Positions 1 through 50,917 of a stretch of 50,917 bases of DNA are shown here, one piece after another. This DNA comes from a bacterium. Lineage in GTDB: Bacteria > SAR324 > NAC60-12. The stretch is taken from assembly GCA_965233585.1 (NCBI GenBank), contig CBDDTI010000201.1, positions 1 through 50,917 of the forward strand, in the 5' to 3' direction. Position 1 is the first letter of the stretch. Each line of letters starts with the position of its first letter. A program made the translations under genes and the position numbers. Under the pieces are notes generated by a model. It saw only the letters and a list, made by a program, of their open reading frames with translations, was not told the DNA's origin and did no database searches.

Positions 1-84
1 GTAAATCCCATTAAATCCCATTCAATGGACCATTTTTAATAGGTAAACCATCAATAAAAGGACCATTTTCTATGGTTCCAAGGC

Positions 85-3000
85 ACTCCCAGCCGCCTCC
101 AGCACCCCCGGCGCCCACGATCTGCCCGCCCTTCTCCATGGCTTCCATGCCCCGCCCCTCGCGGGGTCCGCCGTTCCAGGACCAATACCTAGGCGCCAAG
201 GCGGTCCTAGGAGGATCCACAGCTGGGAGGATGGGAAATCCTATGGGAAATCCTATGGGAATGGATTCTTAAGGGGATAACTCATGGTGATTTACTGCCT
301 TTTTTTGGGGGGGGGATAACTCCATGGGATAACTCATGGTGATTGATTGGATGTTTAAAGATGATTAAAATGGAATTTCATGATTTACTGGGCTTTATTG
401 GGATCCATTCTTTGGGTCATCTTTTTTGAGTTAAACCATTTTTGGGGGCATGTTTGGATGATGGTGGAGATGTTTGAGTAGTTCTGTGATTCGTGTCCAA
501 TATACTTGGGATCACCAAAAAATCACACACTTATTTTGGGGGCAAGTCGGGCAAGTCTTCATTTTTGGAGAGATTCACAAGAACAAACTGAACAAACAGA
601 GCGCGCCCGAAAACTTGGTCGATATAAACCTGAAATGATTGGTCGATGACTTTGCGATAAGGTTGGAAATTAGGGCTGAGTAATGGTGAACCAGAACCTT
701 CACTTTCCAACCAAAAAAATGTCGGAACCAGTTTTGTTTTCACTTTCAGAAGTTTCTCTTCATGTGTGGTATTCTTTCATCGGCTCTTGGATATGTTTTG
801 TTCCATTCATACAGACGTGGCCAATAGGAACAAAACAATCTATGGGGATTTGACCTTAACAAAAAATTGTGTTTGGTTTTTATGGATCCAAGGGATAGAA
901 AATCACAGTTTGTCAGTTTGTGGGCTCTACCTCACAAGACTCAAAAAAAAACAGTTGGACAGTTTGTATGGGATGATTCTAAAACTATTGGAATCAGTTT
1001 TTGCTGTCAGCAGTTCCTGAAAGACTGCGGGAAATACATGGTAGAGCTAGGCTCCACGAAATGATGACTTCAGGTGGACCATCCGATGAACATATTATGT
1101 CAACTACCAAAAACGCCTTCACTGCGTTGAGCTGAAGGAAACATCAGAGAAAACTATGGTTTCAAAAAGGTTTTGCTGTTTTGCAATCAAATACGGCAAT
1201 TTCATTCCGAATTTCGGTTGAATGAATTCTTGAACCCCACTCCACCTTCCGGTTGTATGTTTCATTTCCATAAACTCATCTCGAAGAATCAGCTGTTCCC
1301 CCCAATTGAACTTCTCCAAGATGCACACCAGACTTGGTGCATTTGGGATCATGAAGAACTTGAAAAAGGCGGGTGCCAGCCTCCTCTTCTCCGACGTATC
1401 CTCCGGTGATGTACTTCATGAAGATGGGGAAGTACTTCCTGATCGCAGAACTTGCTTCAGCATGGCTTCCCATATTGGATTGCAATATATTGTAATCATT
1501 CCAATTGACCATCCATATATATATATAATATATATGCAACAAATATATATATATATATAGAATATACAGTAAACACACACAACAACCATTATATAACTCA
1601 TCCTAGCAAGCAGAAAACATTGGCCAGGTGCAAAGTTTGGTTGTTGCAAACCAGCTCCAAACGTTGCCCCTTCGTCACCCTCTTCCAGGGACATCCATTC
1701 CCTTTCTTCACTTTTTTAGTCAAATTCTGATCTGGTTGGTGGTTTCAACCCCTCTGAAGAATATGACAGTCAGTTGGGAGTATTTTTCCCAATATATGGA
1801 AACATACAAGCCATGTTCCAAACCACCAACCAGTGATAAATAAAGCCTAGTGAGCCATGGTCAAAACTCAAAATATGGTCATGCCATGGATAATAATGGT
1901 CATCCATCCGATAGTAGGAATCCTTAATATTGGCTATCAGAAATCCCTGATGTTAAGTCGATGACCATCCTCCCACCGATGAAAACCCAGCTGCGCGCCT
2001 GAACCAGGGTCGCTTTTCTCGGAAAAGAGGTGATTCTGCAATGCATCCTGGGTGGCGTTCCGAAAAAGAACCACTGAGAAAGTGGAAAATCCATGGTTAC
2101 CCTCTGGTAAATTAACATAGCTATTGAAAATAGCCATTTATAGTTGATTTACCCATTAAAAATGGTGATTTTCCATAGTTATGTAAACGTTTACCAGAGG
2201 GTATATAGTTTTCTATGCCCTGTGACACCTGTGATATGTCTTTTCCTGCCATGTTTCTGGAGAATGTCAACTAACCATCCAACTTTCTGTCTATGCCCGA
2301 GGAAGTGGGGAACAGAAGGTCTAAGCAAAGTGCGCAGGCAGGGGCATCAAACTGCCATGTGCGAGGTATAACAACAATTGTCAGACAAAAGGATGCTTCA
2401 AGCATGTTAGACATCATTTTTCATGGTTAGCCAACACATATATCTAAAGTTGGTAATATGTCACACTTAAATCCCAATCAATCCGCTTTAACCCCCGAGA
2501 AATCCCATGGTTTCGGGGTTTCAACCGGTGGCCGCGGCGCCGGGATAGATGGAGCTGAAGGAAATGCCCGTGGAGCGGTGGAAGCGCTCGTGCAACATGT
2601 TGGAGGTCATCATCAGGGCCAGCTTGGTATCCTGCGGATCCGAAGATGACTGAGATGTGACTGAGAATGGAAGGAGACTATATCGACATGGGTATACATC
2701 TGGATATGCTACTTATAGATCAATTTTTGTTTTTTCGGAGTATGAAATTGAACTATTCAGCATTTGCGAGGGATAGAACGGAGATATACAGTCGAATATA
2801 CAACCAAGCGTGATCCAAATGAGACAATGTGAGGATTACAGAGGTGTGTGATTGGGTTTGCAATGGTATACATAGCCAACTTGATATGACTTGGCTGTTT
2901 CTGAAAACGGGTGACTTTCTTTCTATTTTATAGACACCATTTGATTTTGAACCCATATCTTTTGTTGCTTACCATTCCAGAACTTACACCAACGAACATT

Positions 3001-3802
3001 GGGACACGACATAATAAAAAACAATACTGGGCATACAAATATCACTTGGGCAATCTGAAAATGAAGTATACCGTATACCCCAATTTATGGTTGTGTGTTC
3101 TGCCACTGTGCTTGAAACAATGATCATAAACCATGCAAAACCATGCAACACCCACATCATCAATAATGGGGTGCTTGACCATGTTTAAGATGGTTTAAGT
3201 ACGTATCAAATTATTCTACACACCAAACTTGGCACTCAACCAAGAAACCATTGGGATTTAAAGGACGAAACTTGGAATTCAATCAGTCAAAATTTCATTT
3301 GAACCTAGGAAACGTGAGGTTTAACCACCAAGGATTACTGTAGCATTTGACCTATATCATCCTACATCATTTGACCTAGATCATGATCTAAGTTACGATG
3401 ATTTTCGGGGTTCTCTGCTACTGTTGAGTCACTGGTTCTGTCTTCTAGAAGCTGGGATTTCAATCTAAGATGCAGCTTCAGCGAAGCAAATTGAGGAACC
3501 ATTTGCAGGATATGTGAGATGTGTGCTATTCATTTGCCGACGAATCCTTTATGAACTTGAGGGCTCATTCCAGCAAAACTGACTGGTTGTCATTTCTTGT
3601 TTCAATTACGCAAAGGATTATCCCAGAGACTGTCATGTCAATGTGGTACCGTGGTACGTTAAAGATAGACCAAAGCCTACTTTCACATACTTTCGCCTCA
3701 GGATTTTTGCACATCCGCCTTGTACATCTTGGCACCGTTGAAGTTGTAGCCATCCATCATGGCAATCGGTTTCTTACAGCCAAGCTCCAGGCCGTCTAAC
3801 TC
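85..3802 (-). CDS. POR: Light-dependent protochlorophyllide oxidoreductase (LPOR, SDR family), partial: 5 exons at 3802-3719, 2631-2541, 2047-1999, 1438-1325 and 188-~85
   Basis: Exons splice in phase (AG|G acceptors, GC donors) to ELDGLELGCKKPIAMMDGYNFNGAKMYK|DTKLALMMTSNMLHERFHRSTGISFSSIYPG|CIAESPLFREKRPWFR|KYFPIFMKYITGGYVGEEEAGTRLFQVLHDPKCTKSGV|YWSWNGGPREGRGMEAMEKGGQIVGAGGAGGGWE. This includes the SDR catalytic YxxxK (YKDTK) and the LPOR motifs YPGCIA, LFRE and SGVYWSWN. N-terminal Rossmann exons were not found in the window, and the last exon(s) lie left of base 1. Confidence 0.93.
1732..1833. mobile_element. MITE in LPOR intron
   Basis: Perfect 14-bp terminal inverted repeat CTGGTTGGTGGTTT ... 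AAACCACCAACCAG; non-coding; TGAT on both flanks. Confidence 0.8.
2098..2203. mobile_element. MITE (TA-flanked, Tc1/mariner-like ends) in LPOR intron
   Basis: Inverted termini TACCCTCTGGTAAA ... TTTACCAGAGGGTA, with further internal inverted similarity (AACATAGCTATTGAAAAT / ATTTTCCATAGTTATGT). Confidence 0.8.
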
Positions 3803-3862
3803 CTAAACTCGAGACTGCCGTGGTTCATGTGATGAACCAAAACCCAATCGGTAAAAATCATG

Positions 3863-4013
3863 GCCAATTTGTTCAGTTTACCCCTGTTGGTTGATGATTA
3901 TAGAGGATTATACTCCCCAAAATCTTGGGGATGATCATAATCCAAGAACGGGGGATCCATAAAAAAAAACTAACCAGTGTGAAGAAATGATAGAGAGATT
4001 TTGAAGACTGCTC
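3863..4013. mobile_element. Degenerate MITE in LPOR intron
   Basis: Right end TTTTGAAGACTGCTC, weak left end TGTTCA, and internal inverted motifs (TTGGTTGATGATTAT / ATAATCCAA...AACCAG). It resembles a short interspersed dinoflagellate repeat from memory only. Confidence 0.45.
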
Positions 4014-4041
4014 TAAATATTACCTTTGAGGATAGCAGCCC

Positions 4042-4370
4042 TTAGGGTATTCCTCTCCCAGATCCCTCACGAAGTGGACTAGGGTCACGACAAAAGGTTC
4101 AAAGATGTCTTCATGAAACTTTATGCCGCCCCCCCTCTGCTACCCCCCCCAGAAAAATCCAATGTTGCCCTTAATTTGCGTTTTCTTATCCGTTTTCACC
4201 CGGAACACTAATTTGTACTTAATAGGGGCCGTTAACATTGCCGAATGTTACCCTCTCTAATCAGTGAATAATAGCAAAAAATTGTTTTTGCTAATAAGCA
4301 CAAATTAGCGACGCTAATAGTGCACTAATAGCACACAAGTTCTTTTACTAATAGTCACTGATTAGTATTC
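4042..4370 (+). other. Candidate left terminus and subterminal region of the giant element
   Basis: TTAGGGTATTCCTCTCCCAGATCCCTCACGAAGTGGACTAGGGTCACGAC, followed by C-runs, clustered (C)TAATAG-like motifs and three short hairpins (TAACATT-gccg-AATGTTA, TAGCAAAAA-attg-TTTTTGCTA, ATTAGCG-a-CGCTAAT). Confidence 0.5.
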
Positions 4371-4974
4371 AATGCTGAACATTCTCGTTTTCACTACATG
4401 GAACATTTAAGAATATGTTTTGAAACTGTGAGGTTTCTTGTAGAATTGGGTGTAGATCTGGTAAACATTCAGAGGGTTATGCCAAATGTGTGTCAGGTTA
4501 TTGCCAGGGTTCACCGATTTCGGTTTTGGGAAATTTCCTACAAACGCCAACAACACTATTGGTTCACTTTACCCATTACCCATTTTGGGAAAATTCTTGC
4601 AAACGTTAACAACAAATTCATTTTACCCATTTTGGGAAAGTTCTTGCAAATGCCAACCAGAAATATCAGTTCATTTCAAGACAGATTCATTTCAGATCAC
4701 TGGAAGGGCAAAGCAAAAAAAAACAGTGGATGTTTGCTGTCCATCATTTTTGCTCAAATGGAGAAGAGAACAGTTTCCAAGTATGAGGAGATGGCACTTG
4801 TTCCCATACAGAAACCCAGAGATTGAAGGTTGGCACACAAAACAAAGACCTATGTGTTTTCACAAATTCAGCCATAATTCACTTGAACTATTTTTCCAGG
4901 ACACATTTTACTACATTTTTTAGCATTTGAACCACCTGAGCTGCTTCAGAAAGCAGTGGCGGTTGTGCAATGCC

Positions 4975-7900
4975 ATGTCGGACCTTGACAGTGTGGGGAC
5001 GACTGACATAGATAGCCAATCTCCAGATTGGGCACGTTCTAGTGAAACCTCCCTGTTGACACCTGACTTTTCGGAGGACTATCAGTTTTGAAAATTAAAC
5101 ATTTCAAAGTACTTCCATGTCTTGTCATGTGTGGTAATTTTACAACCAAGACTTACAACATTTCCACAGAAGGCAATACTAGTTCTTCATCAACTCCAAC
5201 CCTGCAGGAACTATGGGAGACTGAGGGGTCGCTTGCAAAAGCTGCCCGAATAGTCCAAATTGCATGGAGAACGATCTTGAACAAGATTGGAATTCCACAA
5301 GTGGAGGCACAATTGCACAAATCACTTTTCTTTTCAATAAAATCAGGGAAGGATATTTTTTTGGTTTGAATCAGATCGATTAGGAAAGAATACTTGGATC
5401 TTACTCATTATGAGACCCGCTTACGTTTCAACCTGCCATTTTGCTACACAGGATAGCCTTTTGAGGACAACCACACGGACTTCAAGTACGTGCACTGGTG
5501 CCTACACCAGTGAAATGTCACTAGCAGTGATACAGAAAACAATCAACGAGTCAAAAGCTCTTTCGTTCAATGTGTGCTTTCGACCAGTTTCTGCTCATGA
5601 GACTTGATCAGTTAATTGGAGTTTTTTCAAAATGCCAAATTGACATTTTCCTTATAGAAAATCAGGAACATTATGTTCTATTTCCTACTCAACATTGCAC
5701 ATGTCTCTTGACTACATTGTGAATTGACTGCAAATCATTCATTTGCTTCTTGTATGAATCTACATTAAAAAAAACACGGTGTTTGAGTTGGGAATTCCCT
5801 TAGATTCAAGTAGTTTATATTTGATTGGCCAAAAAAAAATAAATTATATGAGATTGGCTTGGTTGTGGTTCGGTTAGATTGGATTAGATTTTGACAACAG
5901 GTTGAAGGGACTTAGATGGAATGGGATTGTATCAAGTAGTTTGGATTGGATAACCACTAGATTAGATTAAATAAGGCTAGAGTTAGATTAGATTAGATAA
6001 GATTAGATTCGACTAGATTTGACTAGATTATACCAGACTAGATTAGACTAGATTGGACCCTCAGACCAGGCTGGATTTGATTAGATTGGATTAGATTATT
6101 TTTTTTGGGTTAGATAAAAATGTGATTGGACTAGATTAGACTAGATTTGATAAGCTTAGTCTACATTAGCTTAGATTGGAACTTGTTCCCTAATGTTCTT
6201 GAATTTCCCCAAGTTTCACCAATTTTCCCCAATGTCCCCTATTTTCCCTAATGTTTCCTAATTTCCCCAATTTCCCTAAGGTTCCCAAATTTTCCCCAAT
6301 TTCCCCTAATTTCCCTAATGTTCTGTAACGTGCCCTGATGTCCCCAATTTTCTTCAATGTCTCCTAATTTCCCTAATGTTCCCTAATATTCCAGATTTTC
6401 CCTAATGTTCTCTAATGTTCCCCAATTTCCCTAATTTCCTTAATTTTCCCTAATTTCCCAAATTTCCCCCAATTCACCCAATTTTACACAATGTCCCCAA
6501 ATGTCCCCAATTTCCCTAATGTTCCCTAATTTCCCCATATTTCCCTAAAATTCCCTACTTTCCCTAATGTTCCCTAATTTCCCCCTAACGTTCTCTAATT
6601 AATGATCCATAATTTCCTCAATTATCCTGAATTTTCCCAAATGTCCCTTAATTTCCCTAATGTTCCCTAATTTCCCCAAATGTCCCCAAATTCCCTAATG
6701 TTCCCCAAGGTTCCCTAATTTCCTCAAATTTCCCGAATGTCCCCTAATTTCCCTAAGGTTCCCTAATGTTCCCCAAGTTCCCTTAATGTTCCTCAATTTC
6801 CCAAAATTTCCTCAATGTTCCCCAATTTCCCTAATTACTCTAATGTTCCCTAATTTACCTAAGGTTCCCTATTATTCCATAATTTCACCAAATTTCTACA
6901 ATTTCCCTAATGTTCCCTAATTTCCCTAATTTCCCTAAAAGTTCCTTAATTTCCAAAATTTTCCCATTGACTCCAATTTTCTTCAATGTCCACTAATTTC
7001 CCTCAAGTTCCCTGATATTCCTGAATTTCCCTAAGGTTCCCCAATTTCCCTAATTTCCCAAATTTTCCACAATTTGCCTAATTTCCCCAATTTTCCCTAA
7101 TGTTCCCTCATTTCCGCTAATTTCCCCAATGTCCCCTAAGGTTCCTGAATTTCCCCAATTTTCCCCAGACTGCAAAAGTTTAGACTAGGCTAGTTAGATT
7201 AGCCTGGATTAGCTTAGGCTAGACTAGATTTGCATCAAGTAGATTTGCCTAGATTGGATTAGCCTAGATTACTTTAGAATAGATTAATTTTTACTTGATT
7301 ATATTCGGTTAGATTGGACTACGTTTAGGATTAGGTTGTGTATTTTCCAATATCTTTTCTGAAGACGTCAATGAGTCACTATGCCCTGATTGAGGAAATC
7401 AAGCCTTCGTGCCGAGCACTGATTACAGATCATATTGAATGGTGCCAACAGCTTGAGGGCTCTGGTTTTTCTCCACCATGTGTATTTGGAGATGTGCTGA
7501 AATCCCTGCCCGAGAATAGCTACAACAGAGATGACAGTTTTGCAGACAAGTTGTATTCAATTGACCGGGCTCGATTGATGAAGCGCCAGTACTGCTAGAC
7601 ATGTGGGAAACAATGTCCACTTTTCACTCCTGGGGAAGAATCAGAACATGAGACAGCTGGTTTACCATGTGTAGACATGTCAAGTGCTGGCAAGAGACGT
7701 TTTGAGTCCGGCCCAACAGCCCCTATTTTCATTACCCATGGGAAACGACATGTGGCTAAGAGAACACGAGTGATTCTCTTGGAAAATGTCCAGGACAGGT
7801 TTTTTGAAAAAAAAGTATACTTGTATTTCTACCCAGGTTGGAAATGAACAATGTCCAATCAAAGCAATGTTAGGTACAATCAGTTTAATGCTATGCTAAA

Positions 7901-9000
7901 TTTGGCTTCTGTTGTGGTTTGTGTTTACTTTAATTTGCAGGAGCTCCACATGGGCATGATCGAGAAGATCTATGGAAGGCACTACAACATCCACCCGATC
8001 TACATGGATGCTTCAGATTTGGGTCACTCTGGGTCTTCTAGGGCCAGGGTTTATATTATCATGGTTTTGAAGGACGAGGTGGTTCTCACCTATGATTGCA
8101 ACAAGATGTTCAGAGAAATCTCCCACGCTATGACACAGCTTGTGAGCACTTGTCCAGAGGATTATTTTGTGGCTGATGAGACTGATTTAAGACTTGAGGA
8201 AGTAAGGGTTGGACGACAAAGATCCATTCAGGTCAGACCAAATGCAACTAGGATACATTTAGAACCAACAGTACGGTTTTGAAGAAATTGCCCAATGTCA
8301 ATTTCATTCTCTTTTTGTAAGTTTCAGTTTAAACTGTTGAGGGGTAGCTGAGGCAAAATCTTGGTACTACCTTATGACGAAGAGGGAAAAACATGCTATT
8401 CGCTACATCAAGAATTTGTATGTCAAGCGATATGGAAAGGATCCACATGCAAATCGAAATCTGGTGGCCTTCTTGGGAGACAATCCTGAGAAGTTCTTGT
8501 GTTGGTCAGCACCGAGCGGCAAGATACCCACTCTAAGAATGAATTGTGGAAAAATGTACATTGTATCCAAAAACCGATGGCCACTTGAAAAAAAGTAGTT
8601 TTTTTTTCTGTATTTCTGCTCTCATTGTGTTTTTTTTGTGTGTAGCTATGTGCATGTATTTTCCTATTAATATTAGCCAAAATGAACAATCCAATCGGCA
8701 AACCTAATCTAAATGATTTTTATATAATCCAATCTAACTAATCCAATCAAACACATGTTGAAGTTTCTGTACCTTGTGTGTGTGTTTTATCGCTCACTCA
8801 GGATGGTTGGAAAAGAACGGATGGCAACACTTGGTTTCCCTGTTGTTCCGTCCCAAGCTCGATCAATGGGAACACCAGTCTTACCAGTACGTGATCCTCA
8901 AAGGGCAGCGGCGGTTTCGGGCAACAGTATGCACTTTAGTTGTGTAGCTGTGGCACAGATGATTTCCCTGACCTGTTTCTCACCCAAAAATTTCACTTAA
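4975..9000 (+). pseudogene. C5-cytosine DNA methyltransferase; 7 exons (4975-5076, ~5208-5306, 5452-5598, 7395-7793, 7941-8243, 8353-8579, 8802-9000); in-frame TAG at 7596-7598
   Basis: Spliced protein shows C5-MTase motifs in order: I-like STCTGAYTSE; II SAH|EIKPSC; III VFGDV; IV AGLPCVDMS (catalytic PC); VI LLENV; VIII DLGHSGSSRARVYI; TRD IPTL; IX ERMATLGFP; X SGNSM. The only lesion seen is YC*TCGKQC. The exon 2 acceptor is uncertain. Confidence 0.9.
5860..7330. repeat. TAGAT/CTAGAT array (5860-6180, 7180-7330) enclosing a TTTCCCTAA/TGTTCCCTAA satellite (6184-7165) in DNMT intron 3
   Basis: Directly visible degenerate 5-6-mer and 9-10-mer tandem units. Confidence 0.9.
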
Positions 9001-9420
9001 ATTCATGCTGAACAAGGGCCAGAAACTTTTTGGCCACTGCCACATTTGCAAAAAATGAATTTAATTTGCTGAGACAAATGATGAGACTCGTTTTCCTTTA
9101 CTCAATTCACTCTAAAATCTGTGAAGAATGTTCTAGTTGAGAAATCAATTTGCAATCACGTCCTGATGTTGCAATCAATGTTCATTGGCTACAAATTCTT
9201 TTCATACCATTCTTGCTGTTTTTGGAAGATCAAGCCATAGTTAGTCTTGTTTCATCTGACCCATTAACGCCATGAGAGAAAAATTGGTTCACCCATCTTC
9301 GTCTTCAAGATCAGATGAGTCAGAAAGCGATGGGTCCAAGATCAAGCGGCTTTGATTTTGATTAATTGGCAGGTTGCTGGGTGTGTCTTGTTGGGAAACG
9401 GTTTGCAATGACACCAATGT

Positions 9421-9945
9421 CCCCTAATTTCCCTAATGTTCCCTAATTTCCTCAATTTCCCCACTGTTCCCAAATTTCCCTAATGTTACCCAATTTCCCC
9501 AATTTCCCCCAATTTCACCAATTTTCCCTAATGTCCCCTAATTTCCCAAATGTTCCCTAATTTCCTCAATTTCCCCAATCTTCCCCAATGTTCCCCAATA
9601 TTCCGCAATTTCCCTAATGTTCCCTAATATTCCTTAATGTTCACAGTTTTCCCCAATGTCCCCCAATTTCCCTAATGTTCCCCAATGTTAACATTTTTCT
9701 CCAATGTCCCCCAATTTCCCTGATGTTCGTGAATTTCCTTAATGTTCCCTGTAATTTCCCCAAATTTTCCCAATGTTCCGCTAATTTCCCCAATGTTCCC
9801 CTATGTTCCCCTAATTTCCACTGTTTTCCCCAATTTTCCCCAATGTCCCCTAATTTCCCTAATGTTCCCTAATGTTCCCTAGTTTCCCCAATTTTCCCGA
9901 AATTTCCCCAATGTCTCCTAATGTTCCCTAATTTCCCCAATGTTC
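9421..9945. repeat. TTTCCCTAA/TGTTCCCTAA satellite inserted into one copy of a duplicated ~80-bp segment
   Basis: Flanks 9371-9420 and 9946-9970 are contiguous, apart from a few bases, in the second copy at 10096-10176. Confidence 0.85.
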
Positions 9946-39735: not shown

Positions 39736-42700
39736 ATATTATTGCCAATGTAGATTTTTCAAGCAGGGTATCCACAAAGCCAAAGTTAGGATTCCCAACC
39801 TATATTTGCCAATCTCAAACTCCCAACCCAACATTCCCAAGCCAAATGTCCATTTTGTTTGTTGAAATTCCAAATAGAATGACCAAAGGCAAAATTTCCT
39901 GTACATTTTTCCCCATGTGAAATTCCCATGTAACATGTTCCCCAAAAAATAATATAGTATTTAATTCATCTACAGTAAATAAAGACCTCCACAGTAAGTT
40001 TCCAAACCTACAATTCCCCAATGTCACACTCCCAAATTCAAATGCCCAAGATATTATATTCCAAACTAGTCTTCCAACCATCTTCCTGTTTTCAATCTTC
40101 CAAATTTGGAATTCCCTGTCAATAAATTCAAGAGCTAGAATTCCCAAAACTAAATACAACATCTATAATTCCCAATGCCAAAATCCCAAGCTGTGATTCT
40201 CATTCTAGCCTATTGTTTCAGGGTCCTTTCTTTTCAGTTCCAAATCCCACAAAAATCCAGAAAAAAATGTTACAACTTTTTCTCAGCTGAGGTCAAAATG
40301 AAAGCTTGGTTTTGTATCAACGACAGTTTCAGAACCTTGATACATGGGTGGCCTGTTCTAGCAGCAGCTGTGATTGCGATTCTTGACATTGAAGGAGAAA
40401 ACGTTGCTTGGTTTTTAAATTGTTCAGGTTTTTGCTAGAAGTGTTGTCAACTGATAACACCTCCAATTCATGGAACACAATCAGCTTTCTTCTCGATTCC
40501 AAAAAATGACATGTTTCTGATATCCTCTCAATGCTCTGTCCCTCTGAGCCAAAGTCCCTTTTCAATGTTTTGCATTAAAAAAACATATTTAAATTTAACA
40601 CCCAATTGCGTATCGCATCTTGTTTTCTGTCTGTCTTGGTTTTAGAAGAAAGATCTTTGGAACTAAGATTGACGAATTTGAAGCAGACGATGATCAAGAA
40701 GAGCAAGAAGAGGGAGAAATGGAGAGAAACAGGCCTGCCAAGAAGAAGGTGTTGTCAAAATCAGAGCTGTACAAAGCATATGCTGGGAAGGGTCCAACAC
40801 GAATGGTGGCAGAATTTCTCGTTTCTGAGCCAGAGCTGAAGTCCCATGCTGTACTTATCACAGAGATCTCCGCGCCCTTAGAATCTAAATATGTTGCAGA
40901 TATCAAAGCACAGCAAGATTTTCAGTCCATGCGAAGATGGAATGTACTTAGATCATCAGGACAATCATGGTGGGAAACTGGAAAAGAAATTGTGGCTCGC
41001 TCCTTTTCTGTAGACCTGTCAGAGAAGCTTGGTATCTGCCCCCCACTGAAACCACCAGTGACCTTTGATCCTGAGCAAATTTGGATGGTTGAGTCTTGGC
41101 CTTTGTGCTTGGAACATTGTTTCTTGTTGCTGGTTAGCCCTCAAAACCCGCTTTTCAGTTTTAGGTGATTCATTAGTTTCCCTTTGACACATGATTTTCA
41201 CACTTGACCAACCTGTCCAAATTTAAGGAAGAGAAGCAGCTTTTGGAGACTGCATTTCTATTTTCGGCTACTCTTGCGTCAAACACTGTATGGGCACATA
41301 TGCATTTTTGCTATTGCCTCCCTGGAGCGGCTTGTGCTTTATTGTCAGATTCTATGGAGGAGCGTGAAATCATTATGAATGCATTGAGACGTATCATTGA
41401 TGCCATTCAGCGGTTAGATAAACTGAAGGACAAGCAACCAATTTTGCAGGAATTGTTTGACGACCTGGCGTTCCAAAAGGAAACTTACCCTTTGGAATTA
41501 ATGTCTATGCTAGTCCAAAGCAACTTTGACCCAAAGGACCGAGAAATCCAAAAGTTGTTGGCCAGAACAAAGACAGGCACAAGCACAACCAAAGACATCC
41601 TTGAATCAGCATTTTCTCACCTACAGAGCATTTCTGCTTGCCACAACAAGAATCGTAAAATGGGGCTGCACTCGAAGTGGTTGTACACTACAGCGAGCCC
41701 TTACTCAAAGATTTCGGCGCCGCAGGTATATCCGGAACCTTCTGACTGGTTGAGTTTCAGTGTGTCAGACCAAGACCTTATCAAGGAATTTGCCACATTG
41801 GGATCAGTTCAAAAAGAAAAGCTACCAGAGTACGAATATGGACAGGATATCCGTTTCCCAGCCACTGCTCATGACATCACAAAACGGAAATGGAGGAATG
41901 CAGGGCCCACTTCACACCATAACAGTGCAGCAGCCATGATTTTCATGCTCACTGACGTTGGGGACGACTTCCACAATGCAATTCATTCAACATGGGGATC
42001 CTTATTCACAGTTGGTGGCATTTTCCATCATCGACACAAAGACATTTACGCGTTGTCTCTTGGATTCCGGAAATGGGCAGCTGTGGGTATGAAACTTTCC
42101 GTCCAAGAACTGGATGGTGAGGAAACTCAAATGACATTGAGTAATTTTTGACATTTAAGGTAACAATAGCAAGTCTGCTTTCTAGATTAGACAAGAAACT
42201 TAGTAAAATTCGTGTTATTTTTGTTCTTGATATTGGATGTTTCACCACAGAAACACAATTTGTATTACTTTTTACTAGTTTTTGGTAGTTTTTTGCTGGA
42301 TTAACTTTTCATGTTTTCCTGCCAAAAAAAATGTATTTCACGCTTTTTGAGATTTCACGGTTAAAAAAACGCTCAAAACCAAGACCTGAACCCTAAGATT
42401 ATTATACTTTTGCAAAAAGATGATCCAGCAGCAATTATTTAGTAAAAAATAAGCAAGAATTCACATAAATTTTCAAAAAAATAGCAATGCTTTAAAACAA
42501 AAAACAAAAAGGAGCTACTAAGGCATTATTTTCCCAAAAAATGCCAAGTCTTATGAGATTTTTTACTAGCCAGAGGCCCGGATTGTGGATTTTAAATGTT
42601 TCGTGTTTTTTTCCTGTTTTTTTCGTGTTCCGTTTTCGTGGTTTTTTCTTGTTTTTTTTGTGTTTTTTCCCTGCTGTTTTTCCTCTTCTTTTTCACTATT

Positions 42701-44939: not shown

Positions 44940-46260
44940 TAGATTTTTGTTTAGATTTAGATTAGATTTTTTGATTTACATTTACATTTAGATTTGGATT
45001 ACATTTAAATTTAAATTTAGATGAGATTTAGATCTAAATTTAGATTATATTAGATTTTGATTTACATTTAGATTAGATTAGATTTACAATCATATTGAGA
45101 CATAGATTTGATTTAGATTTACATTTAGATTGAGATTTAGGTTTAGATTTAGATTTAGGTTTAGATTGAGATTTAGGATTTAGATTTATTTTTAAATTTT
45201 GGATTGGATGTAGATTTAAATTTAGATTCTATCAGATTTTGATTTGGATTGAGATTTAGATTTAAATTTCGATTTAGATTAGGTTTAGATTGAGATTTAG
45301 ATTTAGATTAAATTTAGATTTAGATTTTAATTTAGATATAATTTTTGATTTTGATTTAGATTAGTTCAGATATTTAGATTTATATTTTGATTGAGATTTA
45401 GATTGAAATTCAAATTTAGATTAGATTTAGGTTTAGATTTAGATTATATTTAGTTTTTAACTTAGACTTAGGTTAGATTAGATTTAGATTGATATTTTCG
45501 ATTGAGATTTAAATTTCGGTTTTGATTAGATTTTGATTTATATTTACATTTAGATTTAGACAACATTTAGATTTAGATTTAAATTAATATTAGATTAGAT
45601 TTAGATCTAGATTAGGTTTTGATTTAGGTTTAGAATAGATTTATGTTTCAACTTAGATTTAGATCTAGATTAGATTTATATTGAGATTGAAATAAAAACT
45701 TCAATTTAAGATTAGATTTTGATTTAGATTAGATTTAAAACTAGATTTACAATCAGATTGAGACATATATTCGATTTAGATTTGCATTTAGATTTAGATT
45801 GAGATTTAGATTTAGGTTTAGATTGAGATTTAGGATTTAGATTTATTTTTAAATTTTGGATTAGATGTAGATTTAAATTTAGATTATATCAGATTTTGAT
45901 TTAGATTGAGATTTAGATTTAGATTTCGATTTAGATTAGATTTAGATTGAGATTTAGATTTAGAATAAATTTAGATTTAGATTTTAATTTAGATTTTTTT
46001 TAAATGATTTAGTTAACTACATTTAATCTAATCTAGTCTAATCTCTAAATCTTATCTTTTCTAGATCTAGATTTTGATTGATATTTATTTAGATTGAAAT
46101 TTAAATTTAGATTAGATTTAGATTGACATTTAAATTTAGAATAGATTTAAATTTAGTATTAGATGTAGATTTAAATTTAGATATTAGATCAGATTTAGAT
46201 TTAAATTTAGATTGAGGTTTAGATTAGATTTTTAATTTTGATTTTGATTAAGATTTAGAT
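44940..46260. repeat. (TTTAGA/TTAGA)n AT-rich array with an internal long direct duplication
   Basis: Visible 5-6-mer periodicity; ~45080-45340 is repeated at ~45745-45995. Confidence 0.9.
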
Positions 46261-47139
46261 TAGTGCTGCCCTTTGTTTCCTTGCCCGAGGTCCACTGTGT
46301 TGGGCGGTTGGCCATTCTGCATTGCTTGCCACATCAGTGTGGATGCCGTTGGGCCGAATTTTTCCGGCACTTAGGCGGGTTCTTTTTGAGGAAAAGGGCT
46401 GTACAGAAGTGCCAGAAATAACATGAAACATGTGTACAGACAAATAATTTCACAATCCTATTTGCTTATATGTTTTTTAATAAATATATACATGTTTGCA
46501 GTACATATATATATATAATCTCCTAAGATTCCTATGTCGTTGGCCCTTTTGTCCCAAGCATTGCACTGCCCGTTGGTTGTGCTGAAACGACCTGGGCCAA
46601 GCATGTGTATCCATGGCCGGGTGCAGATTTCAAAGCCTCACCGCTTCGTCCCCTCAAAGTTGGTAACGATTCCAATTTGGATGTATTTCATTTTCTTCAA
46701 ACATTGTCAAACGTTGATTGAGCAGATGAGCACTGTTCCTTTCAAGAAGAGGTAACCGGAGCATGGAGTGAGGTTATGTCTTGAAGTTTACAACCGAAAA
46801 TTTACATCCACAATGCCTAAGGCATTGTGTGTTGATTATGTTTCTTTGGTCTTTGGCCTGTGGCATTCGCCAGAAGGTGATGTGCCGTGGAATCCCAAAC
46901 GTTTGCAGAGTGAAGAAAAAATGACCAAAGACATTGAGCCAAGTTGCATTTGATGAATTCCTGTACTTGGATGTTGGCAATTCTAGCTTCCCTCACTCCA
47001 CTTGCTGCCCAAGCTGTCTCCTCTCTCTCTCCCCTCTCTCCACTTTCTCTCCACTTTTCTCTCTATCTCTCTCTCTCTCTCTCCCCTTGCTTTTCCCTCT
47101 CCAAGCCTTCAATATAGGGTCCCCAAACTAGAATTTCAT

Positions 47140-48473
47140 ATATTTGCATATATTCCCTTAATTTTCGCTAATTTACCTGATTTCCTAATTTCCCCTTATT
47201 TACCCTAAATGTTCCCTAATTTCCGAGATTTTCTTCATTTATCAAATTTCCCTGTTGTTTCCCCCCATGTTTCAGAATTTTCCCTAATGTTCCCTAATTT
47301 CCCTTTAATTTCGATAATTTCACTGGTTTCCCTTATTTCCCTAATTTCCTTGATGTCCCTGATCCTTCTATTTTCCCTAATGCTCACTGCTTTCCCTTTA
47401 TTTTTTCAGATTTACCTATGTACCATTTTCCGAATTTCCCTAATTTAACTAATTTTCCCAAATTTCACAAATTTCCTTAATATCATGTTTTTCCATAATT
47501 TCCCAAATTTCTGTAATTTCCATTGTTTCCTTCATTTTCAATATTTTCAATAATTTCAGGTTTCTCTAGTTTCTTTAATTTCAGTGTTGTTTCCTCATGT
47601 CATTTCTTTCGTTTTCCATTTTGTTGAATTAATTCCCTAACCTAATTTCCACAATGTTATGTTCCATCATGTTTTCCAACTTCCCGGAATTCCAATTGTT
47701 TCCATTTTCCATTCACTTTATCTACTTTACCTGATTTCCATAATTTCCCTCATGTTCCCAAATTTTCCCTAATGTTCCATAATTTTCCTATAATTGCTCA
47801 GATTCCCCTAATTTCCTCCATTTCCAAAATTTCCTAATTTACATAAAACAGTGTTTGATGAGATCAATTTTGTTTCAAATCTAAATTTGATTTTTAATTA
47901 TGTTTGTTTATCTCTAGAATAAATCCATATCTATAATATTGGATTATTTGACCTATATATGATTGGACTAGATTAAGATTAGGCAAGAGAAGATTTGATT
48001 AAATTTAGGTAACAAATGATTGGATTAGATTTAGATAAGGATTTAAAATGAGATTAAGATTTTGAATAGATGAGTTTGAGATTGAGATTTGGATTTTGAT
48101 TTAGATGAATGTTATTATTGATATTTAGATTTAGATTCAGATTTAAGATGTTGATTCAGATTTAGGTTTGGATTTAGATCTTAATCTAATCCGAATCTCA
48201 TTGGAATATAATTTAAATCAAATCTAAATCAAAAAAAATCTAATCTAAATCTAAAAATTAATCTAATCTAATCTTAATCTGAATTTAAAAAAATAAAATC
48301 TAAATCTAATCTAAACAACCTTAATCTGAGTCTATCTAAACCTAAATCCAATCAAATCTTATCTTAATCTAAATTTAATCTAAACTAAACTAAATCAAAA
48401 ACTAAATTTAAATCTAAATAAACAACTCTAATGTTATAAATCAAAAATTAAAATATAATCTAAATCTTAATCT
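47140..48473. repeat. Degenerate TTTCCCTAA satellite followed by TTAGAT array and its inverse AATCTA array
   Basis: Visible periodicities; orientation switch near 48180. Confidence 0.8.
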
Positions 48474-49014: not shown

Positions 49015-50917
49015 AATTAGGAGACCTTGGGGAAAATTGGGGAAATTGGGGAACATTAGGGAAATTAGGCAACAACATTGGGCAAAAATGTAACATTGGG
49101 GCAAAGTAAGGAAATTTGGAAAAATCAGGAGATTCCAGGGATTCTAGGGATTGTTGGGGAAAAGTGGGGAAAATGGTGATTTTTTTTTTGGGAAAATTAG
49201 GAAAATTGGGGAACATTAGGGAACATTAGGGAAATTACTGGAGATTAGGGAACTTTGGGGCAATTGGGGAAATTAGGGGAAATTGGGGAACATTATGGAA
49301 ATTGCGCAAATTTGGGAAAATTAGTGAACATTAGGGAAATTGCGGACATTTGGGGACATTGGTGAAAATTGGGGAAGTTAGGGAAATTTGGGAACATTAG
49401 GGGAAATTAGGGAACATTAGGGAAATTAGGGAACATCAGGTGAAATGACGTAAATTGAAGAACATTAGGAAAATTGAGGAAAATCGGGGAAATTGGTGAA
49501 AATTGAGGTAATTGGGCAAATTTGGGAAAATTAGGGAACATCAGGGAAATTAGGGGACATTTGGGGAAAATGAGGGAACATTACTTGAAATGAGGGAAAT
49601 TGAGGAACATAAGAAAATTGGGGAAATTAGGGAAATTGATGTTCACCAAATTGGGGAAATTTGGCAAATTTGGGAAAATAGGGAACATTAGGGAAATTGG
49701 GGACTTTTGGGAACATTGCCCAAATTGGGGGTTCCCTAATTTCTCCAATTTTCTCCTAAGGTTCGCACAATTTCCCAATGGTGTTAATGTTCCCTGATTC
49801 CCCAATTTCCCTAATGTTCCCTAATGTTCCCTAATTTCACCTAATGTTCCCTAATTTCCCTAAATGTTCTAATCTCCTAAATTTCCCCAATTTTCCTAAT
49901 GTTCCCAATTTCCCTAATTTCACCTAATGTTCCCTCATCTTCCCCAAAATCCCTAATGATCGTCCTAATTTTCCCAAATTTGCCAAATTTTCTCCAATGT
50001 CCCCAAATGTCACCAATTTCCCTAATGTTCCCTAATTTCCCTGATGTTCCCTAATTTCCCCTAATGTTCCCAAATTTCCCTAACTTCCCCAATTTTCACC
50101 AATGTCCCCAAATGTCCGCAATTTCCCTAATGTTCACTAATTTTCCCAAATTTGCACAATTTCCAATAATGTTCCCCCAATTTCCCTAATTTCCCCAATT
50201 GCCCCAAAGTTCCCTAATCTCCAGTAATTTCCCTAATGTTCCCTAATGTTCCCCAATTTTCCTAATTTTCCCAAAAAATTCACCATTTTCCACACTTTTC
50301 CCCAACAATCTCTAAAATCCCTGATGTTCTGTAATGTTCCCTTAATTTCCTGATTTTTTCCGAAGTTCCCTTACTTTGCCAAAATGTTACATGTTTTTCC
50401 AAATGTCGCCTAATTTCTCTAATGTTCCCCAATGTTGCCTAATTTACCCAATGTTCCCCAATGTTCCCCAATTTTCCCCTATTTCCCCTAAATTGGGAAA
50501 CATTATATAGGGAAATTGGGCAAATTTGGGAAAATTAGGGAACATTAGGGAAATTGGGGCCATTTGGGGACTTTGGGGGAGTTGGGGAAATTGGGGAACA
50601 TTAGGTGAAATTAAGGAAATTAGTGAAATTAGGAAGATTAGGGAAAATTTGGGAAAATAGGGAAAGTTTTGGGAAAATGTGGAAATTAGGTAAATTTGTG
50701 AACATTTGGGAAATTTTGGGAAATTAGGGAAATTGGATGACATTTGGGGAAGTTGGGGAAACTTAGGGAAATTAGGGAAATTAGGTGAAATTAGGGAACG
50801 TTAGGGAAATTGGGGACATTTGGGGACATTGTTGAAAATTGGGGAAGTGAGGGTAATTGGGGAACATTAGGGAAATCAGGGGACATTTGGGAAAATTGGG
50901 AATCCCTAATTTCGCCA
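49015..50917. repeat. TTAGGGAAA/TTTCCCTAA satellite blocks in alternating orientation, including a long inverted duplication
   Basis: G-rich 49015-49720, C-rich 49730-50490, G-rich 50495-50900; ~49060-49430 is the near-exact reverse complement of ~50020-50410. Confidence 0.9.

What the first reader, a model, noticed from the sequence alone, without database searches (positions are those of the whole stretch)
4975..9000. Intron-containing C5-cytosine methyltransferase cargo, interrupted by a single stop in a Cys-rich insertion
All catalytic motifs are intact (PC, ENV, RxR, GNS), but motif I is atypical (STCTG rather than FxGxG). There is an insertion between motifs III and IV containing C-x-x-C-x3-C (YC*TCGKQC), a possible zinc site. 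The one lesion, TAG at 7596, could be a CAG>TAG transition, a sequencing error or a target of mRNA editing/readthrough. No regulatory domain (BAH, chromo, PWWP) is apparent, so it resembles a stand-alone bacterial-style enzyme that has acquired host-type introns.
Basis: partly seen in the sequence, partly recalled or inferred. Interest (0 to 1): 0.75.

Follow-up and report, generated by a model that had tools for sequence, protein, structure and literature searches.

The report
Dinoflagellate DNA methyltransferase gene with stop
This is an intron-containing cytosine DNA methyltransferase gene of a coral-associated dinoflagellate, lying on a stray contig inside a bacterial genome bin; this copy carries a natural premature stop that other samples lack, and it is a host gene rather than transposon cargo.

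Summary
Window 4975-9000 (+) encodes a seven-exon, ~490-aa stand-alone C5-cytosine methyltransferase. It has intact PC, ENV, RxR and GN motifs, an S-x-C-x-G motif I, a Cys/His-rich hairpin before motif IV, and one in-frame TAG (7596-7598).

The interpretation needs correcting.
- **Family:** the gene belongs to a large multi-paralog family whose named members are all Suessiales dinoflagellates (Symbiodinium, Cladocopium, Durusdinium, Effrenium, Polarella).
- **Introns:** positions are conserved across the family and the splice sites are dinoflagellate-type (GA/GC/GT donors, AG|G acceptors), so the gene is old and native, not a recent bacterial-style arrival.
- **Cargo:** no reverse transcriptase, transposase, LTR or TIR lies on the contig, so cargo status is unsupported.
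- **The stop:** TAG is an allele of TAC (Tyr), not CAG. Nine of nine other gene calls covering the codon, two of two sequencing runs covering it, and one metagenome contig read TAC.
- **Closest structure:** the methyltransferase domain of Cryptococcus DNMT5. By sequence profile only M.HhaI/HaeIII are reached. The DNMT5 hallmarks (SNF2 ATPase, Ser-Cys in motif IV) are absent.

RNA-library contigs showed no splice junctions, so the exon model rests on homology. The contig is a eukaryotic contaminant in a bacterial bin. Ordinary; modest interest.

The parts
4975..5084 (+). Exon 1 (start ATG 4975). The 3' end is uncertain; the alternative is 5076 with a GA donor.
   Evidence: tblastn of P0020 aligns TDIDSQSPDWARSSETSL to its N-terminus; models A and B. 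Weakly conserved; no RNA support.
5183..5300 (+). Exon 2. The 5' end is uncertain (alternative 5208). Donor CAA|GTGGAG.
   Evidence: Aligns to P0020/P0073 'SxLxxAARxxQxxWR'; model.
5452..5598 (+). Exon 3 with the motif I variant S-T-C-T-G (5485-5499). It ends ...VSAH before a GA donor.
   Evidence: 48.6% identity over 37 aa to P0020 without gaps. P0025 reads ...SFRPVSCH|EWDAHC. Family columns: S 11/11, C 11/12, G 12/12.
5599..7394 (+). Intron 3, 1796 nt, GA..AG|G. It holds the TTCCCTAAT-type satellite (6186-7167).
   Evidence: Junction SAH|EIKPSC fixed by homology. The codon before the conserved Glu is Q, K or E (xAG) in 67 of 80 family proteins. Read-through after ...CH/AH starts with D or E in P0132 and P0057. 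Satellite.
7395..7793 (+). Exon 4. Holds motif II Glu (7395-7397), Cys/His cluster (C131 7410-12, C154 7479-81, C192 7593-95, C195 7602-04, C199 7614-16), motif III GD (7488-7493), motif IV GLPC (7659-7670) and motif VI ENV (7782-7790).
   Evidence: PF00145 23.3 bits. Conservation: E 83/83, C131 82/87, C154 C86/H21 of 107, C192 125/127, position 195 H114/C11 of 128, C199 126/129, GLPC 134/134. Coordinates.
7596..7598 (+). In-frame TAG (codon 193), 24 codons before the catalytic Cys. It is an allele of TAC (Tyr).
   Evidence: 9 of 9 other gene calls covering the codon read Y. 7598 G>C in X1 and X15, the 2 of 4 runs that cover it. L007 is identical over 598 nt except TAC. Family column: Y44 F23 H15 L9 R7 of 127.
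7794..7940 (+). Intron 4, 147 nt, GA..AG|G.
   Evidence: Junction ENVQ|ELHMG matches the spliced homologs P0017, P0019, P0021. GA..AG is the only placement with an AG acceptor (and the sequence itself). 10 family ORFs read through this same place.
7941..8231 (+). Exon 5 with motif VIII R-A-R (8040-8048). Linked SNP at 8203 (GTA Val here, GCA Ala elsewhere).
   Evidence: PF00145 14.3 bits. G286 59/59, R292 57/57, R294 55/55. 8203 T>C in X1 and X15. A in 7 of 7 other records covering it; V in P0009 and P0015.
8232..8352 (+). Intron 5, 121 nt, GT..AG|G.
   Evidence: Junction RQRSIQ|AKSWYY against P0017 and P0020.
8353..8579 (+). Exon 6 (target-recognition region, FLGDNP...WS...PTLR).
   Evidence: 54.9% identity to P0017 over 71 aa.
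8580..8801 (+). Intron 6, 222 nt, GC..AG|G.
   Evidence: Junction KNRW|MVGKERMATLGFPV is colinear with P0017 KRW|LCGREKLSTLGFPV.
8802..9000 (+). Exon 7 with motif IX/X (GNS 8920-8928) and stop TAA 8998-9000.
   Evidence: 58.3% identity to P0017 and P0021 over 60 aa. G471 and N472 21/21.

Best explanation
The region is a native nuclear gene of a dinoflagellate, most likely a Symbiodiniaceae or other Suessiales symbiont in coral samples. It encodes a ~490-aa stand-alone SAM-dependent DNA cytosine-5 methyltransferase.

**Family.** It is one paralog of a large dinoflagellate DNMT family. The fold is closest to the methyltransferase domain of DNMT5, but without the SNF2 ATPase.

**Inferred mechanism of the intact (TAC) allele.** This follows established C5-MTase chemistry.
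- SAM is held by motif I (here S-x-C-x-G), the motif II Glu, motif III GD and motif X GN.
- Cys217 of the GLPC motif attacks C6 of a flipped-out cytosine, Glu255 of ENV protonates N3, and R292/R294 help.
- The ~150 residues between motifs VIII and IX read the target.
- A conserved Cys/His cluster (C131, C154, C192, H/C195, C199) around a beta-hairpin probably binds zinc and braces the catalytic-loop side.

**This contig's allele.** Codon 193 is TAG instead of TAC. The product would stop 24 codons before the catalytic Cys. The next Met (codon 220) lies after that Cys, so this is a natural null allele of one paralog in one strain or haplotype.

**Shown:** gene, motifs, family, conserved intron places, allele states, closest fold. 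**Inferred:** splicing, enzyme activity, zinc binding, target (CG), loss of function.
For: **Family.** 496 relatives at E<=1e-3. Every relative that carries an organism name is from Symbiodinium spp., Cladocopium goreaui, Durusdinium trenchii, Effrenium voratum or Polarella glacialis. The window protein is sister to D. trenchii CAK9089666.1, with 56% identity over 284 positions.

**Motif conservation.**

**Introns.**
- Donors are GT, GT, GA, GA, GT, GC; 5 of 6 acceptors are AG followed by G.
- 67 of 80 relatives have an xAG codon just before the conserved Glu.
- 10 relatives read through at the ENV intron.
- GC/GT/GA donors and unidirectional genes are the published Symbiodinium pattern (PMC5177918, Table 1 passage).

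**Contig composition.**
- ORFs >=150 aa outside satellites: 8 on the + strand, 1 on the - strand.
- CpG o/e is 0.44 here, against a median of 0.94 (range 0.81-1.28) on the bin's 27 GPCR-bearing animal-type contigs. This fits a CG-hypermethylated genome (PMC5890265, abstract).
- Runs labelled coral metagenome hold the stretch.

**Fold.** Homolog model pLDDT 87.7, with a confident hairpin at the C-x2-H-x3-C. DNMT5 is the top hit: Foldseek E 1.6e-15 against 7.3e-9 for M.HhaI; VIA Z 28.0 with 381 aligned against 25.8 with 299-304.

**Allele.**
Against: - No spliced contig was seen. In the two RNA libraries that cover the stretch (X1, X5), contigs run straight through introns 4, 5 and 6. DNA may be present in those libraries, so neither expression nor the exon joins are shown.
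- Window GC (0.387) and exon GC (0.46) are below published Symbiodinium genome values of 43.5-50.5%. Exons of 110-399 nt are longer than the medians of 65-68 bp given for exon-rich Symbiodinium DNMT genes (PMC5890265, section 6).
- No full dinoflagellate spliced-leader word occurs in the bin (0 hits of the 21-mer and 15-mer; motif recalled from memory).
- A neighbouring 318-aa ORF found no relatives. No other window ORF has a Pfam family, so the organism rests on this one gene plus composition.
- Sequence profiles reach M.HhaI/HaeIII and not DNMT5. The family keeps Pro-Cys where Cryptococcus DNMT5 has Ser-Cys.
- The TAG allele is seen directly only in this contig and, by inference, in P0015, which may stem from the same reads.
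Confidence: 0.75

Rival explanations
1. The TAG is an assembly or sequencing error, and the gene is intact in the source organism.
For: Every other data set that covers the codon reads TAC: 9 of 9 gene calls, 2 of 2 covering runs, and L007. The window differs from run X15 by only 2 substitutions in 2121 nt.
Against: A second record (P0015, from a 73,244-nt contig) starts at the same Met after the stop and shares the linked Val at 8203. A G/C transversion together with a linked second change looks more like a haplotype than random error. It is not known whether P0015 is an independent sample.
Confidence: 0.2
2. The methyltransferase is cargo of a mobile element: a retrotransposon of the SymbioLINE/SymbioDIRS kind, a DNA transposon or an integrated virus.
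For: More than 90% of Symbiodinium DNMT genes are retrotransposon-borne (PMC5890265, section 6). The family is large. The bin holds virus-like elements with small MTases on other contigs.
Against: - Retrotransposon DNMTs are described as intronless, in or beside an RT ORF. This gene has six introns at family-conserved places.
- None of the bin's 113 RVT_1 matches is on this contig.
- No Pfam family in 163 further ORF translations from the window.
- No LTR or TIR pair, and no second copy in the bin.
- The small MTases of the virus-like contigs are unrelated in length and motifs.
Confidence: 0.05
3. The contig is coral (animal) DNA, and the gene is a horizontally acquired, decaying dinoflagellate gene in the host genome.
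For: Most eukaryote-like contigs of the bin are animal-type: 41 matches to 7tm_1 GPCRs. Contig GC of 0.387 is the same as theirs. A stop codon is present and no splicing was seen.
Against: - The satellite that fills this contig occurs on 1 of 747 contigs, this one only.
- CpG o/e of 0.44 lies outside the 0.81-1.28 range of the 27 GPCR-bearing contigs.
- GA and GC donors would not be spliced by an animal, yet the frame is otherwise intact over 496 codons.
- Most samples carry the intact Tyr allele.
Confidence: 0.04
4. The TAG is decoded, by readthrough or by RNA editing back to a sense codon, so the allele is functional.
For: The frame downstream of the stop is fully intact.
Against: - The gene ends with TAA, and the TAG corresponds to a plain TAC in other samples, so no change of genetic code is needed.
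- The linked second change replaces the Ala that all 7 other records carry, which fits relaxed constraint.
- No RNA of this haplotype was available, so the idea is untested.
Confidence: 0.04

Closest known systems
DNMT5 (Cryptococcus neoformans; PDB 7R76/7R77/7R78/7T02) and the SNF2-less 'Dnmt5' paralogues reported in dinoflagellates
   Same: It is the best structural match of a family member. Foldseek E is 1.6e-15 to 2.6e-13 with TM 0.57-0.59. VIA Z is 28.0, rmsd 3.0, with 381 residues aligned to chain 313-755, about 80 more than with M.HhaI. The literature says dinoflagellate DNMT5 orthologues lack the SNF2 domain (PMC12344493 passage; PMC10538959 legend passage). It also says Symbiodinium has many exon-rich Dnmt5 paralogues without extra domains (PMC5890265 section 6; peer-review file passage '11 Dnmt5 genes').
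   Different: There is no SNF2 ATPase and no RING fingers. Motif IV keeps Pro-Cys (134/134), where CnDNMT5 has Ser-Cys (bioRxiv 10.1101/2021.10.01.462825 passage). HMM profiles of the family do not reach DNMT5 chains at E<=10. No phylogeny was made, so membership stays open.
Bacterial type II C5-MTases (M.HhaI, M.HaeIII)
   Same: They are the only solved proteins reached by sequence profile: M.HhaI E 2.4e-8 and 2.9e-7, HaeIII 0.011 and 0.034, over motifs IV-VIII. They share the single-domain architecture. VIA Z is 25.8. The nearest non-family Atlas structure clusters are bacterial DNMTs with TM 0.61-0.65.
   Different: Motif I is S-x-C-x-G instead of F-x-G-x-G. There is a ~60-residue Cys/His-bearing insertion between motifs III and IV and an N-terminal helical extension. 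The gene has six spliceosomal introns, and all named members are dinoflagellates.
SymbioLINE-Dnmt and SymbioDIRS-Dnmt3 (retrotransposon-borne DNMTs of Symbiodinium, de Mendoza et al. 2018)
   Same: Same host group. SymbioLINE-Dnmt is also an 'orphan', domain-poor DNMT (PMC5890265 section 6).
   Different: Those are intronless and lie in or next to a reverse-transcriptase ORF. This gene has introns and no RT nearby. No reference sequences were accessible, so sequence kinship was not tested.
DNMT6
   Same: A stand-alone DNMT without companion domains, reported in dinoflagellates (PMC9998398 passages).
   Different: DNMT6 is defined by phylogeny and is now linked to RNA substrates (PMC12344493 passage). 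No DNMT6 reference could be compared here.

Membership tests
C5 cytosine methyltransferase superfamily (Pfam PF00145) | Match to the family HMM above the curated cut-off | tested here: met
   23.3 bits against cut-off 22 on exon 4; 33.9 bits with neighbours in frame. 7 of 11 long homologs are over 22 bits, 2 are below it (16.7 and 20.2 bits) and 2 have no hit.
C5 cytosine methyltransferase superfamily (Pfam PF00145) | Catalytic motifs IV (PC), VI (ENV), VIII (RxR) and X (GN) | tested here: met
   GLPC, ENV, RAR and GNS are present. In the family: PC 134/134, E255 124/126, N256 114/128, R292 57/57, R294 55/55, GN 21/21.
C5 cytosine methyltransferase superfamily (Pfam PF00145) | Motif I F-x-G-x-G (SAM binding) | tested here: not met
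   It is replaced by S-T-C-T-G. The replacement is itself conserved: S 11/11, C 11/12, G 12/12. Pfam alignments of the 9 homologs with a hit start at profile position 58-66 of 324.
C5 cytosine methyltransferase superfamily (Pfam PF00145) | Methyl transfer to cytosine C5 in DNA | not testable with these tools
   Needs an enzyme assay.
DNMT5 | MTase domain most similar to DNMT5 | tested here: met
   DNMT5 chains take ranks 1-4 in Foldseek and rank 1 in VIA-align at Z 28.0. This holds by structure only; sequence profiles do not reach DNMT5.
DNMT5 | C-terminal SNF2 ATPase with RING fingers | tested here: not met
   The protein ends 24 residues after GNS. No other Pfam domain in the gene or its homologs. 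The literature reports the same loss in dinoflagellate DNMT5.
DNMT5 | Ser instead of Pro before the catalytic Cys (motif IV) | tested here: not met
   Pro216 in 134 of 134 family sequences. The feature is taken from a passage of bioRxiv 10.1101/2021.10.01.462825.
DNMT5 | Placement inside the DNMT5 clade in a DNMT phylogeny | not tested
   No reference DNMT1-6 sequences could be obtained.
SymbioLINE-Dnmt / SymbioDIRS-Dnmt3 | Intronless DNMT ORF in or directly upstream of a reverse-transcriptase ORF, with LINE or DIRS terminal structures | tested here: not met
   Six introns. None of 113 RVT_1 matches is on the contig. No Pfam hit in 163 further ORF translations. No LTR-like pair.
DNMT6 | Placement in the DNMT6 clade; no companion domains | not testable with these tools
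   Absence of companion domains is met but is not specific. No DNMT6 reference was available.
DNMT1 / DNMT3 | BAH/RFD (DNMT1) or PWWP/ADD (DNMT3) companion domains; nearest fold | tested here: not met
   No such Pfam domains. DNMT3 and DNMT1 chains rank lower: Z about 20 and Foldseek E about 1e-6.

The most novel reading that the evidence does not exclude
The family is a distinct, Suessiales-wide branch of DNMT5-like enzymes. It lost the SNF2 motor, kept a classical Pro-Cys catalytic loop, and gained (or retained) a zinc-binding C-x2-H-x3-C hairpin and an S-x-C-x-G cofactor motif. Its many paralogs are the enzymes that write the near-complete CG methylation of these genomes. On that reading, the TAG/TAC polymorphism found here is a natural knock-out of one paralog segregating among coral symbionts, which would allow the contribution of a single paralog to the methylome to be read from field samples.
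Probability: 0.25. Interest if true: 0.55.

Novelty: new member of a known kind. Interest (0 to 1): 0.3.

Why it matters
Dinoflagellate symbionts of corals have an unusual, almost fully CG-methylated genome and lack DNMT1. The enzymes responsible are uncharacterised 'Dnmt5/Dnmt6 paralogues' (PMC5890265).

This locus gives a clean gene model for one such paralog. It documents family-wide features that bear on mechanism:
- an altered SAM motif;
- a conserved Cys/His hairpin;
- a retained Pro-Cys catalytic loop;
- conserved GA-donor introns.

It also shows a natural null allele. That is useful but incremental.

The practical lesson is about data hygiene. A species-representative 'bacterial' genome rated 2.09% contaminated holds several megabases of animal and protist DNA. 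Eukaryotic genes there get called with bacterial code-4 read-through, as the 424-445-aa gene calls of this locus show.

Tried and rejected
- **Splice junctions from public runs.** Four runs were laid on 7280-9400; no joints were found. X1 and X5 (RNA libraries) give contigs colinear with the genome, X8 gave no cover, and X15 (DNA) spans the stretch in one contig. So there is no evidence for or against splicing. I left the satellite-bearing part (before 7280) out of the laid stretch because the tool turns away long repeats, so the upstream junctions were not examined.
- **Context of distant relatives.** The search for related loci with alignment A1 on metagenome contigs failed for lack of a conserved stretch. 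The RT-adjacency test on relatives was therefore not done.
- **Source organism from neighbours.**
  - The Atlas search on the 318-aa ORF 41195-42151 gave only weak unrelated clusters.
  - The search for homologous proteins on it ('longer' lengths only) found none.
  - The PCP family search found nothing, but its controls did not ring either, so it is uninformative.
  - The spliced-leader 21-mer and 15-mer had 0 hits. The 12-mer had 7 hits against 1.4 expected, none on this contig.
- **Allele scan.** Exact-pattern scans across the stop codon found 1 metagenome contig (TAC) and 0 in genome contigs (the window's own record may be left out by the tool).
- **DNMT5 by sequence.** Profiles A1 and A2 against the PDB gave no DNMT5 chain at E<=10.
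- **Alternative exon 4 start.** An acceptor at 7364|7365 with a canonical GT donor near 5577 was considered, because 'HYALIEE' also resembles the strand before the motif II Glu. It was rejected because 67 of 80 relatives place an AG right before the conserved Glu and P0025, P0020 and P0168 match '...FRPVSAH'.
- **Variant genetic code for TAG.** Rejected: other samples have TAC.
- **Earlier notes of this scan.** By place, sequence and words, there was nothing on this contig.
- **Supplements of PMC5890265.** The largest file (MOESM1, probably the supplementary figures with the DNMT alignments and trees) could not be read. It may already show this family's placement.


Full report
**What is there**

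Pfam's C5-MTase model PF00145 matches the piece 7335-7847 at 23.3 bits (cut-off 22, E 5.2e-5). It matches 7848-8282 at 14.3 bits, below the cut-off, and the other 5 of 7 pieces tested have no hit.

A read-through gene call of the same locus (P0005) was searched against 1.84 billion representative proteins. It found 496 relatives at E<=1e-3, 235 at <=1e-10 and 22 at <=1e-30. The signal is far beyond chance.

- STCTG, 5485-5499
- GLPC, 7659-7670
- ENV, 7782-7790
- RAR, 8040-8048
- GNS, 8920-8928

The stretch YC*TCGKQC runs from 7590 to 7616, with TAG at 7596-7598.

**Gene model**

Spliced full-length relatives were used as guides: P0020, P0073, P0017, P0021, P0025, P0166 and P0168. With them I place the exons at:
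- 4975-5084
- 5183-5300
- 5452-5598
- 7395-7793
- 7941-8231
- 8353-8579
- 8802-9000

This gives 496 codons, one internal TAG and a terminal TAA. The first junction is uncertain; an alternative (5076/5208) gives 485 codons.

The donors read GT, GT, GA, GA, GT, GC, and five of six acceptors are AG followed by G. At the two GA introns, no other placement keeps an AG acceptor.

These are not alignment artefacts, because the intron places are conserved across the family:
- In 67 of 80 relatives that cover the conserved motif II Glu, the codon just before it is Gln, Lys or Glu, that is xAG. The 13 exceptions include the spliced proteins P0020, P0025, P0070, P0073, P0084, P0102 and P0153.
- Ten relatives carry an unaligned insertion exactly after ENxx, as expected for read-through of an intron there.
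- Genomic read-throughs after '...CH/AH' start with Asp or Glu, that is GA (P0132, P0057 and the window).

This moves the start of exon 4 to 7395. The canonical-looking acceptor at 7364|7365 is rejected.

**No RNA proof**

Four public runs were laid on 7280-9400 and none showed a joint. Contigs of the two RNA libraries that cover the stretch (X1, X5) run through introns 4-6. The tool warns that DNA can be in such libraries. The exon model therefore rests on comparative evidence only, and expression is not shown.

**The family**

Every relative that carries an organism name is from one of:
- Symbiodinium microadriaticum, S. natans, S. necroappetens, and Symbiodinium spp. CCMP2456, CCMP2592 and KB8
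- Cladocopium goreaui
- Durusdinium trenchii
- Effrenium voratum
- Polarella glacialis

There are several paralogs per genome. In a FastTree of the 31 sequences with at least 200 aligned positions (rows below that were dropped), the window protein is sister to D. trenchii CAK9089666.1. Identity is 56% over 284 positions.

Family-wide conservation:

| Feature | Count |
|---|---|
| Motif I: S / C / G | 11/11, 11/12, 12/12 |
| Motif II Glu | 83/83 |
| C131 | 82/87 |
| W141 | 95/95 |
| C154 | C 86 / H 21 of 107 |
| C192 | 125/127 |
| Position 195 | H 114 / C 11 of 128 |
| C199 | 126/129 |
| GLPC | 134/134 |
| E255 / N256 of ENV | 124/126, 114/128 |
| R292 | 57/57 |
| R294 | 55/55 |
| GN | 21/21 |

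In an AlphaFold model of P0020 (pLDDT 87.7, pTM 0.87) the C-x2-H-x3-C lies on a confident beta-hairpin. Metal binding itself is inferred.

**The stop codon**

The 90%-identity cluster of this locus has 17 members, of which 15 were listed and 14 fetched.
- Nine records cover codon 193, and all nine read Tyr.
- Two records (P0009 from this contig, and P0015 from a 73,244-nt contig) begin at the Met 27 codons downstream of the stop. Only these two carry Val at codon 346, where all 7 other records that cover it have Ala.

Laid runs agree: position 7598 is C in X1 and X15, and 8203 is C in both. X5 and X8 do not cover 7598. A metagenome contig (L007) is identical over 598 nt except TAC.

In the family this column is Y44, F23, H15, L9 and R7 of 127. 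Hence TAC>TAG, not CAG>TAG, and no change of genetic code is needed.

The stop lies 24 codons before the catalytic Cys, and the next Met lies after it. If real, the allele is null. I put about 0.7-0.75 on a real haplotype and about 0.2 on an assembly error.

**Where the contig comes from, and whether the gene is cargo**

The window is the whole contig C201 of a 12-Mb, 747-contig 'prokaryote' assembly. Earlier notes of this scan call its bacterium SAR324 (not checked here).

Only part of the bin is densely coding. It also holds 41 matches to animal-type 7tm_1 receptors and 113 to RVT_1. Much of it is therefore animal DNA, presumably the coral host, since runs labelled coral metagenome hold the stretch.

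C201 differs from those contigs:
- Its TTCCCTAAT-type satellite occurs on 1 of 747 contigs.
- Its CpG o/e is 0.44, against 0.81-1.28 (median 0.94) on the 27 GPCR-bearing contigs.
- Its long ORFs are nearly all on one strand: 8 against 1 at >=150 aa.

Together with the GA/GC donors (published for Symbiodinium: PMC5177918, Table 1 passage), this points to a dinoflagellate.

Against this, several points stand:
- GC is lower than published Symbiodinium genomes.
- Exons are longer than typical.
- No spliced-leader relic was found.
- No neighbour gene could be identified.

For cargo status I found nothing:
- no RT on the contig;
- no Pfam family in 163 further ORF translations;
- only satellite repeats;
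- no paralog in the bin.

The four other PF00145 hits in the bin are ~195-219-aa MTases in virus-like elements and are unrelated.

**Comparison with known families**

- De Mendoza et al. 2018 (PMC5890265; sections 6 and 7 read) divide Symbiodinium DNMTs in two. Exon-rich host genes are Dnmt5, Dnmt6 and Dnmt2 paralogues without extra domains. Intronless retrotransposon genes are SymbioLINE-Dnmt and SymbioDIRS-Dnmt3. The present gene fits the first group.
- By structure the nearest solved protein is the MTase domain of Cryptococcus DNMT5. Foldseek E is 1.6e-15 against 7.3e-9 for M.HhaI. VIA Z is 28.0 with 381 aligned against 25.8 with 299-304. Later literature states that dinoflagellate DNMT5 lost the SNF2 domain (PMC12344493 passage).
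- Against membership: family HMMs reach only M.HhaI/HaeIII by sequence, and the family keeps Pro-Cys where CnDNMT5 has Ser-Cys.

I therefore say it works like, and most resembles, a DNMT5-type MTase domain standing alone. Clade membership is left open, because no reference sequences could be brought in for a tree. The unreadable supplementary figure file of PMC5890265 may already contain that placement.

**Verdict**

This is a real, ordinary host gene of a coral-associated dinoflagellate, caught as a contaminant contig in a bacterial bin. It carries a natural (or, less likely, artefactual) nonsense allele. It is not transposon cargo and not a recent bacterial import.

Some features were not mentioned in the paper passages I read, but they may be in the literature:
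- the conserved Cys/His hairpin;
- the S-x-C-x-G motif;
- the conserved GA-donor introns;
- the segregating null allele.

Two searches were aimed at dinoflagellate DNMTs in general, not at these features, so I make no claim that they are unpublished.

Noticed in passing
whole assembly G000 (747 contigs): The 'prokaryote' genome (completeness 92.49, contamination 2.09 by marker genes) is a chimeric bin. By summed length, about 2.4 of 12.0 Mb lies on contigs 80-90% covered by ORFs >=150 aa, while 643 contigs are under 40% covered. The bin also has 41 matches to animal-type 7tm_1 GPCRs and 113 to RVT_1. Marker-based contamination scores miss this eukaryotic load.
   Followed up: partly
G000 contigs C155:24213-24869, C322:11448-12086, C581:12429-13067, C657:19791-20375 (L001-L004, L006): Four virus-like elements each carry a small (195-219 aa) PF00145 methyltransferase. 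The gene set around it is largely shared by C322, C581 and C657. On C581 the neighbour is a Pox_A32-type packaging ATPase (PF04665, E 3.5e-11), and the MTase hits PHROG DNA-methyltransferase families (E 4.7e-17). They look like polinton-like or virophage-like elements; the host is unknown. They are unrelated to the window's enzyme.
   Followed up: partly
G000 C155:25312-30501: A 1730-aa open frame, visibly richer in G+C-type codons than its surroundings, lies directly beside the small-MTase element. By eye it contains an 'LLELFAGS...LPCTKWS...FEHP' stretch reminiscent of an MTase fold. It was not scanned.
   Followed up: no
G000 contigs C313, C138, C102, C352: Four repetitive contigs (14-59 kb, 86-93% identical to one another in blocks of up to about 5 kb) are almost free of CG dinucleotides. 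CpG o/e is 0.02-0.06; for example, C313 has 42 CG against 2348 GC. This is far more extreme than anything else in the bin. Cause unknown.
   Followed up: partly
window 6186-7167, 9414-9945, 16456-17220, 23527-24011, 27317-27760, 34642-35518, 47153-47846, 49194-50902: A degenerate satellite with nested periods of about 9.5, 19 and 29 nt (TTCCCTAAT / AATTTCCCC type, about 62-73% matches) recurs in both orientations. It often flanks TAGATT-type microsatellites, and one array lies inside an intron of the MTase gene. It occurs on no other contig of the bin.
   Followed up: partly
window 10697-11554 versus 15768-17794; 21915-24866: There are tandemly duplicated coding-looking segments on the + strand: two related ORF pairs about 5-6 kb apart, and repeats in three to five copies 0.4-1.4 kb apart. 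None has a Pfam family. They may be a tandem gene array, as is typical of dinoflagellates.
   Followed up: no
window 32634-33337, 36593-37177, 44950-46261: Further simple arrays: (GAGAGGAGA)n with about 77 copies, a 7-nt TCGAGAT unit with about 84 copies at 90% matches, and a 1.3-kb TTTAGA array where GC falls to 0.19.
   Followed up: no
proteins P0001, P0005, P0008, P0012 (same locus in other assemblies): Public gene calls of this locus are 424-445-aa artefacts. They read TGA as Trp and run through introns, and they still carry a precomputed PF00145 label. This shows how eukaryotic contigs in metagenome pipelines produce chimeric 'proteins'.
   Followed up: yes
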